Shown here: one piece after another, positions 49,301-55,300 of the stretch | Position numbering within the stretch: position 1 is the stretch's first letter | Layout of the letters: each line of letters starts with the position of its first letter | From: Escherichia coli | GTDB taxonomy: Bacteria; Pseudomonadota; Gammaproteobacteria; Enterobacterales; Enterobacteriaceae | NCBI RefSeq assembly: GCF_003334405.1 | Contig: NZ_QOWM01000005.1 | Direction: 5' to 3' (one strand) | DNA: 64,000 nt | Made by a program: the position numbers

Positions 49301-52300
49301 CGACGCAGCGGTGCTTAACGCCGCCTGTTATATGCAGGTGGTTGGCGGTCTGCCAACGGGCACTAAAGATCTATATGAAGCGCGAGAACAAGTGAAACAA
49401 GGGATTCGCCAGTTGCTGCCACATTCGAAAGATGTCGGCGTGCCAATTGCGCTGGAGCCACTGCACCCGATGACAGCTGCCGATCGCTCTTGCCTGTGCA
49501 CGTTACGCCAGGCGCTGGACTGGTGTGATGAACTCGATCCCGATGGTGAGTTTGGCCTCGGCGTGGCGGTGGATGTTTATCACGTCTGGTGGGATCCGGA
49601 TCTCGCCAGTCAGATCCTGCGTGCCGGAAAACGCATCCTCGCGTTTCATGTTTCCGACTGGTTAGTGCCGACCACTGATCTGGTCAATGACCGTGGTATG
49701 CCGGGAGATGGCGTCATCAATATTCCGTCAATTCGTCGGCTGGTTGAAAACGCCGGATTTAATGGCGCTATTGAACTGGAAATATTCTCGCCGTACTGGT
49801 GGCAAAAAGATATTAACAGCACGCTGGATATTAGCGTCGATCGCATCGCGCATTATTGTTAAGGAATGATCATGAGTGACCAACCCGTTCTGTTCAGCAG
49901 AGCGGCGGCTTCCTGCCGCCTGACATTGAACCGTGAAGATAAATGTCATGCTATTAACGAAGAGATGATCGAATCTCTCGACCATTATTTAAATGAAATT
50001 GAAAACGACACCACATTACGATTAGTCGAATTAACGGCAACCGGCGATAAATTCTTTTGTGCGGGCGGCGATATTAAATCGTGGTCGGCCTATTCGCCAT
50101 TAGATATGGGCAGAAAATGGATTAAACGCGGTAATGACGTTTTTAATCGCCTGCGAAACTTACCCCAATTAACCGTTGCGAATCTCAACGGTCATACCAT
50201 CGGCGGTGGTATTGAACTGGCCTTGTGCTGCGATATTCGTATTGCCCGCCCCGGCGCGAAATTCTCTAACCCGGAAGTGATGCTCGGCATGGTGCCTGGC
50301 TGGATGGGCATTGAACGTGTGCTTAATCAGGTTGGTCCGGTGGTCGGTCGCCAGATGCTGATGCTGGGTAAACGCCTGACGGCGCAGGAAGCCCAGGCGG
50401 CGAATTTAATTGATGAAGTGGTAGAAAAAGAACAGGTGGAAAGCTGGATGGCGAACCAGTTAGCGCAGCTGGAAAAATGCGGCCCGGTGGCACTGGCGCA
50501 TATTAAGCAACTGATTCTGGCACTGGAAAATAAACATGCCGATTACCCGCACCAGCTACTGGCCGGATTAATGTCTGCCACTCAGGATTGCCAGCAGGCG
50601 ACGCGCGCCTTTGCCGAAAAAAGTAGCGTGAGCTTCCATAATCAATAAGGAAATTGTATGCGTAAGATAACAACCGCCGAGGCACTGGCGGCGCAAATTC
50701 AGGACGGTGCGACTATTGCTATTAGCGGTAACGGCGGCGGTATGGTGGAAGCCGACCATATTCTGGCTGCTATTGAAGCGCGTTTCCTGCAAACCGGACA
50801 CCCTCGCGACCTGACGCTAATCCACTCGCTGGGTATTGGCGATCGCGACTGCAAAGGCACTAATCGTTTTGCGCACGCAGAGATGCTCAAACGCATTATT
50901 GCCGGGCACTTTACCTGGTCGCCCAAAATGCAGGCGCTGGTAAAAAATAACACGATTGAAGCCTACTGCTTTCCTGGTGGCGTGATTCAGGCACTGCTAC
51001 GGGAGATCGGCGCCGGACGTCCGGGGCTTTTTACCCACGTTGGGCTGGGATCGTTTGTTGATCCACGCAATGGCGGCGGTAAGTCGAATGAATGCACTAC
51101 CGACGAGCTGGTAGAACTGATTGAAATCGACGGTGAAACCAAACTTCGTTATCGCCCTTTCAAAGTGGATTACGCGATTTTGCGTGGCACTTATGCCGAT
51201 CCTCGAGGCAACGTCAGCCTTGAAGAAGAAGCGATTGATATGGATAGCTATTCCATGGCGCTGGCAGCACACAACAGCGGCGGCAAAGTGTTCGTACAGG
51301 TACGCGATGTGCTGGAAGCTGGCGCGATTGAACCACGCCGGGTCAAATTACCGGGCATTCTGGTTGATGGCATCGTTGAACACCGCGAACAACCACAAAC
51401 CTATCTTGGCGGTTACGACCTGACCATCAGCGGCCAACATCGCCGTCTGAGTTCTAACGACGCTATTGAACTGGTTAGTCATCCGGTACGTCGCCTGATT
51501 GCCCGTCGGGCAGCACGCGAACTGGTAGCTGGCGCTTCAACCAACTTTGGCTTTGGTATTCCCGGCGGCATTCCAGGAGTAGCGCTGCGCGAAGGCGTTC
51601 CTTACCAAAGTTTATGGCTGAGCGTCGAGCAAGGCGTACATAACGGCATGATGCTGGATGATGCGTTTTTCGGCTGCGCCCGCAACGCCGATGCCATTAT
51701 TCCATCACTCGATCAATTTGAGTTCTACAGTGGCGGAGGGATCGATATCACCTTCCTCGGCATGGGAGAGATGGATCAGTACGGTAACGTCAACGTCTCC
51801 CATCTCAATGGCAATCTGATTGGCCCCGGCGGATTTCTCGAAATTGCGCAAAATGCCCGTAAAGTGGTGTTCTGCGGCACGTTCGACGCTAAAGGCAGCA
51901 AGATCGATATAACACCAGATGGCTTGCATATCGCCCAGTCAGGTCAAATCCCTAAACTGGTTACCAAGGTGGAAAAAATCACTTTTAGCGCCGCCTACGC
52001 ACAGCAAAGTGGTCAGGAAGTGTTGTATATCACTGAACGCGCAGTATTCCAGTTAACGGCAGAAGGCGTTGAATTAATTGAAATCGCGCCGGGTGTGGAG
52101 ATTGAGCGCGACATTCTGCCGTATATGGCTTTCCGTCCAATTATCAAGCACCCACGCCTGATGGAAAGTAGCCTGTTTACGCCGATGGAGGATGCATGAG
52201 TCAGCTTGATGACACCATCCTTGATGCGCTGACGCACGTTACTTTCCCAAAGGGTTTTGCACAGGCAGAGCCCGCATGGGTTGTCACGGTAGACGGTGTT

Positions 52301-55300
52301 GATTACCCACTCTGGCAAACAGATGCCCTGGTAGTCGGCAGTGGTGCAGCCGGGCTGCGTGCAGCTGTGGAACTTAAACGCCGCCAGCAAAATGTGCTGA
52401 TCGCCACCGCCGGGTTATATATGGGGACGTCGGCATGTTCTGGTTCCGATAAACAGACACTGTTTACCGCCGCTACCGCGGGCAACGGCGACAACTTCAC
52501 CAAACTGGCAGAGGCACTGGCGAGCGGTGGGGCGATGGATCACGACACCGCTTATGTCGAAGCGGTAGGTTCTCTGCACACTCTTGGCGGGTTGCAATAT
52601 CTTGGTCTGGAATTACCGGAAGATCGCTATGGCGCGATTCTTCGTTATCAAACCGACCATGACGAAGCCGGGCGTGCAACCTCGTGTGGGCCGCGTACCT
52701 CAAGGTTAATGGTGAAAGTGCTGTTGGAAGAAGTACAGCGCCTCGCCATTCCAGTGTTGACCAGTGCAACAGTGATTAAACTGCTGCATCAGCGTGACGA
52801 AAACGGCGAAGACCGTGTTGCGGGGGCAATCCTCGCGACCGGTCATCGCGCCCATAACCCTTGGGGGCTGGCAATTGTGACTGCGCCCAATGTGGTACTG
52901 GCAACAGGAGGGCCTGGCGAGCTTTATCGCGACAGTGTGTACCCACACAAATGTTTTGGCTCGCTGGGGCTGGCGCTGGAGGAAGGCCTGACGCTAACCA
53001 ATCTGACCGAAAGCCAGTTTGGTATAGGCACGCCGCGTAGCACGTTTCCGTGGAATTTATCCGGCACCTATGTACAGGTGATCCCGTATATCTATTCCGT
53101 GGATGCTGAGGGTAACGAGTATAACTTCCTCGCGGATTACTATCGCACCACCCAGGAGCTGGCTTCAAACATTTTCCGTAAAGGCTATCAGTGGCCGTTC
53201 CACGCCACTCGGGTGATGGATTTTGGCTCCAGCTTGTTAGATATGGCAGTAGCGCAAGAGCAGCAATCAGGGCGTCAGGTATTTATGGATTTCAATCGCA
53301 ATCCTGAAGCGGTGCCGGGTGACCTGCCGTTCTCATTAGATCGACTGGACGACGACGTTCGCGCGTATCTGGAAAATAACGACGCTCTGGCACCATCGCC
53401 CATCGAACGGCTGCAACGAATGAATCCGCTGTCTATCTCGCTGTATAAGATGCACGGTTACGATCTCACCACACAGCCTTTGCAGTTTGCCATGAATAAT
53501 CAGCATATGAATGGCGGCATTGAAGTGGATATCTGGGGACAAACCTCCCTGCCCGGCTGTTTCGCCGTGGGGGAAGTTGCTGGCACACACGGCGTCACTC
53601 GCCCTGGTGGTGCAGCATTGAATGCCGGGCAGGTTTTTGCTGTTCGTCTGGCACGTTTTATTGGTTGCACGCAAAAGCGGAATATTGATGGAGATATAGC
53701 ACAGCTGGTAGCTCCTACACTGGCTTCTATAAGAGAGATCATTACTCAGGCGCACGATAACGGGACCGGGATGCCGTTGTCGGTTGTGAGAGAAAAAATT
53801 CAGGCACGAATGTCTGACCATGCGGGATTTATTTGCCATGCCGATAAAGTCCGACGCGCCACTCGCGATGCCCTGCTATTGAGCGAATTTGTCCAACGGC
53901 ATGGATTGGCTATCAAACATGTGGGTGAAGTTGCCGAGCTGTTTATGTGGCGGCATATGGCACTGACTTCTGCCGCCGTATTAACGCAATTAACGCATTA
54001 TATTGACGCAGGTGGTGGTAGTCGGGGAGCACGTATTATTCTCGACAGGGATGGAAATTCTATTCCGCAAACACGAAATGGTTTTTGTGATGCCTGGCGC
54101 TTTCGTTCAGAGCGTACTGAGGATAAAAAAGATAAACTACTTATTCATTATTGCAACGGTATCTTTCACGTCAGAGAAACACCTGTTCGTGAGTTTCCTA
54201 TTATCCGAGGTATTTGGTTTGAAAAAAACTGGCCTGGTTTTCTTAATGGGACAATTTACCAGCCACAGGATGAATGATATTGCAAAGGTTAATCACTATG
54301 CGAAATATAATTAGATCTATTAATGCTCTGCTTGCAGCATTGAACATTACCATTTTGGCGATCATCGTGGCATGTGTGACGTGGCAGGTGGCTGCACGAT
54401 TTATATTTACTAGTCCCAGTATTTTTACAGATGAACTCAGCCGTTTGCTCTTTATTTGTCTTGGACTTTTTGGTGGGGCATACACCGCAGGGCAAAACCG
54501 GCATCTGGCGATTGACCTGCTACCTATGATGCTGAAAGGAAAAGCCCGACGTCATTTATTTTTGTGTATTCAGATTATCGTTATTATCTTCGCAACCATC
54601 ATTATGGTATATGGTGGTGGGCTATTAACGATGGATACATTCGATTCAGGTCAGACCTCGCCCGCTTTAGGCTGGCAAATGGGATATATCTATATGAGCA
54701 TCCCGATTAGTGGTGTACTTATTATTATATACACCATAGATATGGTTTTAACCGAACTTAAACAACCACTCTAAAGATAACAAACAACAACCAACCATAG
54801 TAGGAATGGAGAAATTATGGATTACTGGTTACCGATTATTGTGTTATTTGGTGCCTTCTTTTTTATGTTGGCATTAGGTGTACCTATTGTTTATGCCATT
54901 GGTTTATCGACACTGGCATCAATTTCCACACAACTCGATTTCAACTCAGCATTGAGTGTGGTTTCCCAAAAGTTAGCCTCCGGGTTAGATAGTTTTACGT
55001 TGTTGGCAATCCCATTTTTTATCTTGTCTGGCAACATTATGAACCATGGAGGAATAGCGCGACGATTAATCAACTTTGCCCGTATTCTCGGCGGTCGTCT
55101 GCCAGGCTCACTTGCCCACTGTAATATTCTCGCCAATATGCTGTTCGGGGCAATTTCTGGTTCAGCCGTGGCTTCGGCGGCTGCGATGGGCGGCGTCATG
55201 CATCCGCAACAGGTTAAAGAGGGTTACGACCCGGCATTCAGTACTGCGGTTAACGTTGCCTCTGCCCCGACGGGTTTGCTTATTCCACCAAGTAATACGT

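What the first reader, a model, noticed from the sequence alone, without database searches (positions are those of the whole stretch)
52196..54277. ATGA start/stop overlaps suggesting translational coupling within the island operon
The CoA-transferase stop and flavoprotein start share ATGA at 52196-52199, and the flavoprotein stop and DctQ-like start share ATGA at 54274-54277. This ties the transporter to the enzymes in stoichiometric co-expression and argues that the TRAP genes belong to the same functional unit rather than being a chance neighbour.
Basis: seen in the sequence. Interest (0 to 1): 0.3.

Follow-up and report, generated by a model that had tools for sequence, protein, structure and literature searches.

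The report
One real gene overlap, one artefact
Of two four-base stop/start overlaps proposed in an accessory E. coli catabolic operon, the enzyme-enzyme one is real and strictly conserved, while the enzyme-transporter one comes from reading the longest open frame; both are ordinary features.

Summary
Both ATGA tetranucleotides are at the stated coordinates. The window is an E. coli chromosome. The operon is an accessory island between ytfB and rplI: TetR regulator, then SDR, TIM-barrel, enoyl-CoA hydratase, CoA-transferase, flavoprotein, TRAP dctQMP.

Junction 1 (52196-52199) is a genuine start/stop overlap. RefSeq annotates it, and ATGA plus an upstream GGAGG are invariant in 15/15 loci from four genera plus two unassigned contigs. 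Of 174 four-fold-degenerate sites in the CoA-transferase gene, the only invariant one is the A of the flavoprotein's ATG. Coupling by termination-reinitiation is likely but untested.

Junction 2 (54274-54277) is not a genuine start. RefSeq and other gene calls start dctQ at 54298 (158 aa). Relatives down to 43% identity begin there. The two closest TRAP-type lineages have a TAA stop, so the "ATG" is ATA, and one also has an in-frame stop. Across six lineages the spacing is +20, +20, +20, +12, -16 and +214 nt.

The TRAP genes still belong to the unit: same strand, 20-nt gap, no promoter or terminator match. A transporter always fills this position. The last ~90 flavoprotein codons plus the transporter (about 54000-57160) form an exchangeable cassette: 1451 E. 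coli genomes carry TRAP and 1693 carry MFS. Ordinary; low interest.

The parts
47359..48006 (-). Divergent TetR/AcrR-family regulator gene of the island
   Evidence: RefSeq annotation; NCBIfam TetR-family hits; present at the same position in all orthologous islands
48219..49010 (+). SDR gene (annotated 3-ketoacyl-ACP reductase), first gene of the operon; the longest ORF starts at TTG 48177 but the annotated start is 48219 (263 aa)
   Evidence: 263 aa in all orthologous loci
49020..49862 (+). AP_endonuc_2 TIM-barrel gene (sugar phosphate isomerase/epimerase family); +9 nt after the SDR gene, whose stop codon lies inside the SD (UGAGG)
49872..50648 (+). Enoyl-CoA hydratase (crotonase) gene; +9 nt after the TIM gene, whose stop lies inside the SD (UAAGGA)
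50658..52199 (+). YdiF-type class I CoA-transferase gene (513 aa); +9 nt after the hydratase gene
   Evidence: PDB 2ahu E=1e-113
52187..52192 (+). Shine-Dalgarno GGAGGA for the flavoprotein gene, inside the last codons (M-E-D) of the CoA-transferase gene; 3-4 nt before the ATG
   Evidence: duplex energy with the 16S 3' end -9.3 kcal/mol; GGAGG invariant in 15/15 loci; codon 511 GAG is one of only 8 invariant codons among 111 two-fold sites
52196..52199 (+). Junction 1: genuine ATGA stop/start overlap (flavoprotein ATG 52196-52198, CoA-transferase TGA 52197-52199)
   Evidence: RefSeq coordinates; invariant in 15/15 loci; the only invariant site among 174 four-fold-degenerate sites
52196..54277 (+). 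FAD_binding_2 flavoprotein gene (693 aa), remote member of the L-aspartate oxidase / fumarate reductase flavoprotein superfamily
   Evidence: N-terminus conserved from M1-S2
54000..57160 (+). Exchangeable cassette (approximate limits): last ~90 codons of the flavoprotein gene plus dctQMP; replaced by a different flavoprotein 3' end plus an MFS gene in other strains
   Evidence: identity to the E. coli MFS-type allele is 92-100% in all but one 100-nt window (86% at ~49300) up to ~53990, about 60% from ~54000, 100% again from ~57257; GC falls from 49-56% to 41-46% at ~54000
54274..54277 (+). Junction 2: ATGA formed by the flavoprotein TGA stop and the preceding A; an in-frame ATG that is most likely not the dctQ start
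54284..54288 (+). Weak SD (AAAGG) 9 nt before the real dctQ start
   Evidence: duplex energy -3.4 kcal/mol, spacer 8-9 nt; identical in L002 and L091, and replaced by other SDs at the same place in L085, L092 and L093
54298..54774 (+). dctQ, TRAP small permease, 158 aa, true start
   Evidence: RefSeq WP_001244358.1; dominant 158-aa cluster with 1425 members; N-terminal alignment
54817..56118 (+). dctM, TRAP large permease (433 aa), +42 nt after dctQ
   Evidence: TIGR00786 458 bits against a cutoff of 268
56171..57142 (+). dctP, TRAP substrate-binding protein (323 aa), +52 nt after dctM
   Evidence: TIGR00787 246 bits against a cutoff of 175; closest solved relatives 4ovr, 4x8r, 4n8y
57206..57232 (.). 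Palindromic GC-rich hairpin flanked by an A-run and a T-run between dctP and rplI; probable terminator serving both convergent units
   Evidence: terminator-like scan, 12 pairs

Best explanation
The region is part of one TetR-controlled accessory operon of E. coli: SDR, TIM-barrel enzyme, enoyl-CoA hydratase, CoA-transferase, flavoprotein, then the TRAP transporter genes dctQ, dctM, dctP. The CoA-transferase and flavoprotein genes truly overlap by ATGA. A strong SD (GGAGGA) sits in the last CoA-transferase codons. A ribosome terminating at UGA 52197-52199 most likely reinitiates at AUG 52196-52198, so flavoprotein synthesis is tied to CoA-transferase synthesis (inferred, not shown). The second ATGA is an accident of a TGA stop following an A. 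The real dctQ start is ATG 54298, 20 nt downstream, with its own weak SD. dctQ is therefore translated mainly by separate initiation on the same mRNA, with at most context-dependent residual coupling. The TRAP genes are part of the unit, but as the variable half of it. The last ~90 flavoprotein codons plus the transporter form a cassette that exists in a TRAP form and an MFS form.
For: Junction 1: RefSeq coordinates overlap by 4 nt. ATGGAGGnnGC-ATGA is invariant in 15/15 loci from Escherichia (several lineages), Klebsiella, Salmonella, Citrobacter and two contigs of unassigned origin. Among 174 four-fold-degenerate sites of the CoA-transferase gene in 14 distinct sequences (74-92% identity), exactly one is invariant: codon 513 GCA, the A of the ATG. 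The CoA-transferase stop is TGA in 14/14, whereas the flavoprotein stop is TGA 2, TAA 9, TAG 2. SD duplex energy is -9.3 kcal/mol, beyond the -8.4 'strong' threshold of PMC6728339. The flavoprotein N-terminus is conserved from residue 1, 52196 is the first in-frame start after a stop, and the first ~25 codons that I read hold no other in-frame start. Four of five native E. coli ATGA pairs were coupled. Junction 2: PGAP start is 54298. The 158-aa cluster has 1425 members. Thirteen of 15 relatives down to 43% identity start at the aligned Met, and none matches MILQRLIT. L002 and L091 have a TAA stop, so ATG becomes ATA, and L002 also has an in-frame TAA four codons before the conserved ATG. Spacing is +20, +20, +20, +12, -16 and +214 nt in six TRAP lineages, with the downstream ATG and an SD present in 6/6. 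AGGA before 54274 is only 2-3 nt away. Operon and unit: gaps are +9, +9, +9, -4, +20, +42, +52. There is no plus-strand promoter-like site between 52000 and 54800, and total hits equal the shuffle expectation. No Rfam element was found. An MFS or TRAP transporter always follows the flavoprotein gene.
Against: No expression data exist for this island; K-12 is not among the strains I could confirm as carrying it. Coupling at junction 1 is inferred from architecture and base rates. One of five tested E. coli ATGA pairs (bioBF) initiated independently, and a strong SD could also support independent initiation here. The SD-sequestering hairpin seen in the window (z = -3.1) is not kept in orthologues (z = -0.42 to +1.45) and shows no covariation, so an RNA-unfolding mechanism is unsupported. 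For junction 2, homologue starts are themselves predictions. ATGA is present in the window, and 1396 of 1451 E. coli genomes are >=99% identical to it over 54215-54345, so some initiation at 54274 in this lineage cannot be excluded.
Confidence: 0.78

Rival explanations
1. One reading: both ATGA overlaps are functional, dctQ starts at 54274 (166 aa), and it is coupled to the flavoprotein gene by termination-reinitiation, giving stoichiometric co-expression of enzymes and transporter.
For: ATGA and an open in-frame ORF exist at 54274. 1396 of 1451 E. coli genomes with the TRAP form are >=99% identical to the window over 54215-54345. Reinitiation at overlaps does not always need an SD.
Against: The ATG is absent (ATA) in the two closest TRAP lineages, and L002 also has an in-frame stop. 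There is no homologous extension in 15 relatives. Gene callers choose 158 aa. The SD-like AGGA is only 2-3 nt from the ATG. Junction geometry differs in nearly every lineage.
Confidence: 0.05
2. Dual start, a nascent overlap: in the main E. coli lineage a TAA-to-TGA change created an extra upstream ATG. A fraction of ribosomes terminating on the flavoprotein gene reinitiate there and make an 8-residue-longer DctQ alongside the 158-aa form.
For: The TGA allele appears derived, since TAA is found in L002, L091, L092 and L093. The frame between 54274 and 54298 is open in the window. -4 overlaps are thought to evolve easily (PMC12548453). Four of five native ATGA pairs were coupled.
Against: There is no evidence of selection on the extension, the SD geometry is poor, and all pipelines aa. 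The extension is dispensable in sister lineages.
Confidence: 0.13
3. Junction 1 is a conserved overlap without functional coupling. The flavoprotein gene is translated by independent initiation at its strong SD, and the geometry persists only because the start codon and SD are needed and an overlap is mutationally hard to undo.
For: The SD is strong enough for independent initiation (-9.3 kcal/mol). bioBF behaved this way. No conserved inhibitory structure blocks the ribosome-binding site. The invariance test shows selection on the ATG, not on coupling itself.
Against: Four of five tested native E. coli ATGA pairs were coupled, and in four of five removing the SD reduced reinitiation. The geometry never drifted in 15 loci, while the next junction changed in almost every lineage.
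Confidence: 0.2
4. The TRAP genes are a chance neighbour or a separate transcription unit that happens to lie next to the enzyme operon.
For: The TRAP cassette has a distinctly lower GC (41-46% against 49-56%) and is replaced by an MFS gene in other strains. A hairpin lies between dctM and dctP. In distant taxa the flavoprotein homologue is rarely next to TRAP genes.
Against: The gap is 20 nt on the same strand with no promoter or terminator match. Every enterobacterial version has a transporter in this position. The TRAP genes are inherited together with the flavoprotein's 3' end. Both transporter types belong to sugar-acid/carboxylate carrier families, as expected for an operon that starts with a CoA-transferase.
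Confidence: 0.05

Closest known systems
[quoted passage not shown] 2019, PMC6728339)
   Same: Junction 1 has the same geometry: co-directional genes, ATGA, and an SD inside the 3' end of the upstream gene. It is conserved across genera.
   Different: Coupling has not been measured here. The two products are not known to form a complex: the CoA-transferase is YdiF-like and the flavoprotein has no close solved relative. The stoichiometry rationale is therefore speculative.
Closely spaced, non-overlapping E. coli gene pairs (+10 to +20 nt) (PMC10666635; review PMC12548453)
   Same: Junction 2 (+20 nt, own SD) and the three +9 junctions of the enzyme genes fit this class. The +9 junctions match the small E. 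coli peak near +10 nt, with the stop codon embedded in the SD.
   Different: Published results disagree on whether about +20 nt still allows coupling: nearly abolished in PMC10666635, but unaffected up to +25 nt in one reporter study cited in PMC12548453. Behaviour here cannot be predicted.
Tripartite ATP-independent periplasmic (TRAP) transporters of the DctP type, especially hexuronate-binding systems (PDB 4X8R glucuronate, 4N8Y galacturonate)
   Same: DctQ (PF04290), DctM (TIGR00786) and DctP (TIGR00787) are all present. The DctP is closest to hexuronate-binding structures (E about 1e-68).
   Different: The gene order is Q-M-P with the binding protein last. The ligand is unknown. The system is embedded in a CoA-transferase / hydratase / flavoprotein operon rather than a classical uronate pathway.

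Membership tests
-4 nt (ATGA) stop/start overlap pair coupled by termination-reinitiation: junction 1 (52196-52199) | Co-directional neighbours whose stop and start codons share ATGA | tested here: met
-4 nt (ATGA) stop/start overlap pair coupled by termination-reinitiation: junction 1 (52196-52199) | The ATG is the genuine start of the downstream gene | tested here: met
   It is the first in-frame start after a stop, and the first ~25 codons that I read hold no other in-frame start. The N-terminus is conserved from M1-S2. Distant homologues align from residues 1-8. It is the only invariant site among 174 four-fold sites.
-4 nt (ATGA) stop/start overlap pair coupled by termination-reinitiation: junction 1 (52196-52199) | SD inside the 3' end of the upstream gene at workable spacing | tested here: met
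   GGAGGA at 52187-52192, -9.3 kcal/mol, spacer 3-4 nt; invariant GGAGG; GAG codon invariant
-4 nt (ATGA) stop/start overlap pair coupled by termination-reinitiation: junction 1 (52196-52199) | Overlap conserved in orthologues | tested here: met
   15/15 loci
-4 nt (ATGA) stop/start overlap pair coupled by termination-reinitiation: junction 1 (52196-52199) | Downstream translation depends on ribosomes reaching the overlap | not testable with these tools
   Needs reporter fusions with upstream stop codons and mRNA normalisation
-4 nt (ATGA) stop/start overlap pair coupled by termination-reinitiation: junction 2 (54274-54277) | The ATG is the genuine start of the downstream gene | tested here: not met
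   PGAP start is 54298; the dominant cluster is 158 aa; relatives have no matching extension; the position is ATA in L002 and L091, with an in-frame stop in L002
-4 nt (ATGA) stop/start overlap pair coupled by termination-reinitiation: junction 2 (54274-54277) | SD inside the upstream gene at workable spacing | tested here: not met
   Only AGGA, 2-3 nt from the ATG
-4 nt (ATGA) stop/start overlap pair coupled by termination-reinitiation: junction 2 (54274-54277) | Overlap conserved in orthologues | tested here: not met
   1 of 6 TRAP-type lineages; spacings +20, +20, +20, +12, -16, +214
Coupling by RNA unfolding (inhibitory structure over the downstream ribosome-binding site) | Stable, conserved structure sequestering the SD or start, opened by the upstream ribosome | tested here: inconclusive
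   Junction 1 in the window: -37.7 kcal/mol, z = -3.1, SD paired. Nine orthologues give z = -0.42 to +1.45, and only 2 pairs change on both sides, matched by 217/500 shuffles. Junction 2: z = +0.69.
DctP-type TRAP transporter | Small permease (DctQ), large permease (DctM) and periplasmic binding protein (DctP) encoded together | tested here: met
   PF04290 for DctQ; TIGR00786 at 458 bits and TIGR00787 at 246 bits, both above cutoff
Single operon (one transcription unit, SDR to dctP) | Same strand, short gaps, no internal promoter or terminator, one regulator | tested here: inconclusive
   Gaps of -4 to +52 nt. There is no plus-strand promoter-like site near dctQ and overall hits equal chance. 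A weak hairpin lies at 56130-56147. Transcripts were not observable.

The most novel reading that the evidence does not exclude
Junction 2 may be a gene overlap caught at birth. A single TAA-to-TGA change in the main E. coli lineage created an in-frame ATGA inside a mobile 'flavoprotein-tail plus transporter' cassette. Terminating ribosomes may now reinitiate there, adding an 8-residue N-terminal extension to DctQ and a new translational link between enzyme and transporter that sister lineages (L002, Salmonella L091) lack.
Probability: 0.13. Interest if true: 0.35.

Novelty: new member of a known kind. Interest (0 to 1): 0.15.

Why it matters
It matters little for basic biology. Four-base overlaps are the commonest gene spacing in bacteria, and RefSeq already annotates this one. 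The practical lessons are methodological.

- A longest-ORF reading creates spurious ATGA overlaps. Three of the eight genes in this operon are over-extended that way.
- Synonymous-site invariance across orthologues cleanly separates a selected overlap from an accidental one: 1 of 174 sites was invariant, and it was exactly the start-codon base.

The more interesting by-product is the island itself. It is an uncharacterised, CoA-dependent, probably sugar-acid-related catabolic operon. It is present in more than half of complete E. coli genomes, in two transporter versions (TRAP 1451, MFS 1693 of 5426), and the exchange boundary lies inside the flavoprotein gene. No paper in the searchable library describes it.

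Tried and rejected
1. RNA-unfolding coupling at junction 1. The window folds into a hairpin that pairs the SD (z = -3.1). Nine orthologues do not fold better than shuffles and there is no covariation. I rejected it as a conserved feature.

2. Inhibitory structure at junction 2. There is none (z = +0.69).

3. Natural CoA-transferase-flavoprotein fusions as evidence of a complex. P0002, P0034 and P0086 are internal in-frame deletions of E. coli alleles, not true fusions.

4. Solved-structure relatives, to judge whether the two enzymes form a complex. The CoA-transferase is YdiF-like and the flavoprotein is only remotely related to aspartate oxidase / fumarate reductase. This does not inform on a complex.

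5. Literature on the island, searched by protein accessions and by gene-name combinations. Nothing relevant was found. One search failed on a syntax error.

6. Rfam scan of the operon. No matches.

7. Promoter scan for an internal dctQ promoter. There was no plus-strand hit near the junction, and the total number of hits equals the shuffle expectation, so the scan has little power.

8. Conservation of CoA-transferase/flavoprotein adjacency in distant taxa. It is not conserved. Distant flavoprotein homologues sit mostly with the SDR and TIM-barrel genes instead.

Full report
**What is there**

The mechanical ORFs 50658..52199, 52196..54277 and 54274..54774 overlap by four bases.

The window is an Escherichia coli chromosome. 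The full 9.3-kb segment 48000-57300 occurs in 1446 of 5426 complete genomes. It lies between ytfB and rplI. RefSeq annotates these genes:
- a divergent TetR regulator (47359-48006, minus strand)
- an SDR (48219-49010)
- an AP_endonuc_2 TIM-barrel protein (49020-49862)
- an enoyl-CoA hydratase (49872-50648)
- a CoA-transferase (50658-52199)
- a FAD-dependent oxidoreductase (52196-54277)
- the TRAP genes dctQ (54298-54774), dctM (54817-56118) and dctP (56171-57142)

The public annotation therefore accepts the first overlap.

**Junction 1 is a real, selected overlap**

I collected orthologous islands from several Escherichia lineages (L002, L003, L086, L087, L088, L094), Klebsiella (L082, L085), Salmonella (L083, L089, L091), Citrobacter (L084) and two contigs of unassigned origin, probably enterobacterial (L092, L093).
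- In all 15 loci the sequence ATGGAGGnnGC-ATGA is kept while neighbouring codons drift.
- The CoA-transferase gene is 513 codons in all 14 distinct sequences, at 74-92% nucleotide identity. It holds 174 four-fold-degenerate sites. Exactly one has an invariant third base: codon 513 (GCA), whose A is the first base of the flavoprotein's ATG.
- The CoA-transferase stop is TGA in 14/14, as an ATGA overlap requires. The flavoprotein's own stop is TGA twice, TAA nine times and TAG twice.
- The Glu codon that supplies the SD's central G (GAG) is one of only 8 invariant codons among 111 two-fold sites.
- The SD GGAGGA (52187-52192) pairs with the 16S 3' end at -9.3 kcal/mol, 3-4 nt before the ATG.
- 52196 is the first in-frame start after a stop, the first ~25 codons that I read hold no other in-frame start, and the protein is conserved from Met1-Ser2.

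**Does junction 1 couple translation?**

This cannot be shown here. The base rates are favourable:
- -4 nt is the commonest co-directional spacing in E. coli (PMC10666635).
- About 15% of co-directional pairs overlap in most prokaryotic groups (PMC6728339).
- Four of five native E. coli ATGA pairs were coupled in reporter assays with mRNA normalisation, and removing the SD reduced reinitiation in four of five (PMC6728339).

In this window two of about 37 co-directional pairs have a -4 overlap, tamA/tamB and this one.

I tested the alternative RNA-unfolding mechanism. The window sequence folds into a long hairpin that pairs the SD (-37.7 kcal/mol, z = -3.1). Nine orthologues fold no better than shuffled sequence (z = -0.42 to +1.45). 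Pair counting shows no covariation: 2 pairs change on both sides, which 217 of 500 shuffles match. Termination-reinitiation is therefore the likeliest mechanism, and independent initiation at the strong SD is the main rival.

Nothing indicates that the two enzymes form a complex. The CoA-transferase is YdiF-like (2ahu, E = 1e-113). The flavoprotein has only remote solved relatives (E about 1e-9). The few fused database proteins are internal deletions.

**Junction 2 is an artefact of the longest ORF**

Five lines of evidence agree.
1. PGAP starts dctQ at 54298. The dominant protein cluster is 158 aa with 1425 member sequences, and no 166-aa form appears among the cluster representatives.
2. In an alignment of 15 relatives down to 43% identity (Salmonella, Klebsiella, Rhodocyclaceae, Morganella, Xenorhabdus, Pseudovibrio, Algoriphagus, Vibrio), 13 start exactly at the residue aligned with Met-9 of the 166-aa ORF. 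One starts five residues later, and one has its own 3-residue extension. None has a counterpart of MILQRLIT.
3. There are natural knock-outs. In the two closest TRAP-type lineages, a divergent E. coli (L002) and Salmonella (L091), the flavoprotein stop is TAA, so the position of ATG 54274 reads ATA. L002 also has an in-frame TAA four codons before the conserved ATG. The segment AAAGGttaatyactATG is retained in both.
4. Across six TRAP-type lineages, the distance from the flavoprotein stop to the conserved dctQ ATG is +20, +20, +20, +12, -16 and +214 nt. That ATG, with an SD 3-8 nt upstream, is present in 6/6.
5. The only SD-like element before 54274 (AGGA) is 2-3 nt from it. AAAGG sits 8-9 nt before 54298.

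The ATGA is in the window, and 1396 of 1451 E. coli genomes with the TRAP form are >=99% identical to it over 54215-54345. It is thus probably a derived, lineage-specific TAA-to-TGA change.

With a 20-nt spacer, coupling by reinitiation is expected to be weak. It was 'almost completely abolished' at about 20 nt in PMC10666635. One reporter study cited in the 2025 review saw no loss up to +25 nt (PMC12548453). Residual coupling, or some initiation at 54274, cannot be excluded.

**Is the transporter part of the unit?**

Yes, but for other reasons.
- The genes are on one strand with gaps of +9, +9, +9, -4, +20, +42 and +52 nt.
- No plus-strand promoter-like site lies near dctQ, although the scan as a whole is at chance level.
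- There is no Rfam element.
- A palindromic hairpin at 57206-57232 closes the unit against rplI.

Comparative data are more telling. Every enterobacterial version has a transporter immediately after the flavoprotein gene:
- TRAP in E. coli, Klebsiella sp. RHBSTW-00484, one Salmonella lineage and two contigs of unassigned origin
- a 425-aa MFS carrier in K. oxytoca, Salmonella, Citrobacter tructae, E. albertii, E. marmotae and many E. coli

Among complete E. coli genomes, 1451 carry the TRAP form, 1693 the MFS form and 2 an MFS+MaoC form.

An E. coli MFS-type strain (L094) is 92-100% identical to the window in all but one 100-nt window (86% at ~49300), from the left flank to about 53990. Identity then falls to about 60% at 54000. 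It is unalignable across the transporter and is identical again from about 57257. GC content drops from 49-56% to 41-46% at the same point. In Salmonella the breakpoint lies further upstream, near 53150-53300.

The exchangeable cassette is therefore the 3' end of the flavoprotein gene plus the transporter. Junction 2 lies inside it.

Both transporter types point to sugar-acid-like carboxylates. The DctP is closest to TRAP binding proteins solved with glucuronate (4X8R) and galacturonate (4N8Y) (ligands from PMC11668362). The MFS protein matches the D-galactonate transporter family model, below its cutoff.

**Comparison with what is known, and verdict**

Junction 1 is an ordinary member of the very large class of -4 overlaps. 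It is well conserved and probably coupled. Junction 2 belongs to the class of closely spaced, separately initiated genes. The three +9 junctions of the enzyme genes, each with the upstream stop embedded in the SD (UGAGG, UAAGGA, UAAGGA), fit the small E. coli peak near +10 nt described in PMC10666635.

Interest is low. The uncharacterised island and its transporter cassette polymorphism are the more noteworthy by-products. No paper describing them was found.

Noticed in passing
window ~54000-57160; L094 8100-9900; L082-L089: The island has two major transporter versions at the same site: TRAP dctQMP (1451 complete E. coli genomes) and a 425-aa MFS carrier (1693). The exchange boundary lies inside the flavoprotein gene, at about 54000 in E. 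coli and about 53150-53300 in Salmonella, so the last 90-350 flavoprotein codons travel with the transporter.
   Followed up: yes
L086 4303-4463 and 9506-9985; L089 4385-4463 and 9525-10004: A third island version (a rare E. coli lineage and a Salmonella lineage) lacks the crotonase-type enoyl-CoA hydratase gene. It carries a MaoC-type (R-specific) hydratase gene after the MFS gene instead. This may be a non-orthologous replacement within the same pathway.
   Followed up: partly
L004-L081 (flavoprotein homologue at about 6001 in most): Homologues of the 693-aa flavoprotein (37-59% identity) occur in Rhizobiales, Rhodobacterales, Betaproteobacteria, Planctomycetota, Lentisphaerota and Verrucomicrobiota. 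Where any island gene is nearby, it is usually the SDR and/or the AP_endonuc_2 TIM-barrel gene, and only rarely the CoA-transferase, hydratase or TRAP genes. The conserved core therefore looks like SDR + TIM barrel + flavoprotein, of unknown function.
   Followed up: partly
window 49008-49019, 49860-49871, 50646-50657: The three enzyme-gene junctions upstream of the overlap all have exactly +9 nt spacing, with the upstream stop codon embedded in the downstream SD (UGAGG, UAAGGA, UAAGGA). This is a very regular architecture that contrasts with the looser +20/+42/+52 spacing in the TRAP cassette.
   Followed up: partly
window 48129-48150: A perfect palindrome, ATCAACCA-accaga-TGGTTGAT, lies in the 212-nt region between the divergent tetR and SDR genes. 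It is a plausible operator for the island's TetR regulator. No convincing sigma-70 promoter match was found in this region.
   Followed up: no
window 56130-56147: A GC-rich hairpin (TGGCGGCAcctGCCGCCA) with a weak T-rich tail lies in the 52-nt gap between dctM and dctP. It could modulate the ratio of binding protein to permease, or stabilise the dctP message.
   Followed up: no
window 52156-52255: In this strain the junction-1 region folds into a long hairpin pairing the flavoprotein SD with codons 7-9 of its own gene (-37.7 kcal/mol, z = -3.1). A similar topology appears in other Escherichia sequences, but stability is not above chance in any orthologue and covariation is absent.
   Followed up: yes
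L085 8098-8311: In Klebsiella sp. RHBSTW-00484 the flavoprotein-dctQ spacer is 214 nt. From memory, it contains a sequence resembling an enterobacterial repetitive intergenic (ERIC) element (…GTGAGTCCCCAGGAGCATAGATAACTATGTGACTGGGGTGAACGAGCG…). This was not tested.
   Followed up: no
proteins P0002, P0034, P0086: A few E. coli genomes encode CoA-transferase-flavoprotein 'fusions' of 973-1078 aa. They are in-frame internal deletions spanning junction 1, which suggests the island is decaying in some strains.
   Followed up: partly
window 48177 vs 48219; 49866 vs 49872: Two further genes of the operon have longest-ORF starts upstream of the annotated, homologue-supported starts: SDR (TTG 48177) and the hydratase (ATG 49866, which has zero spacing from its SD). 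A sequence-only reading would mis-place these junctions too.
   Followed up: partly
window 32580-32583: The only other -4 overlap among annotated genes in the window is tamA/tamB (minus strand). These encode the two subunits of a known heteromeric complex, in line with the published enrichment of such overlaps among complex subunits.
   Followed up: no
window 47359-47375 and 47400-47999: The tetR gene's 3' end overlaps the convergent ytfB 3' end by 17 nt. The tetR gene has the lowest GC of the island (38.8% over 47400-47999).
   Followed up: no
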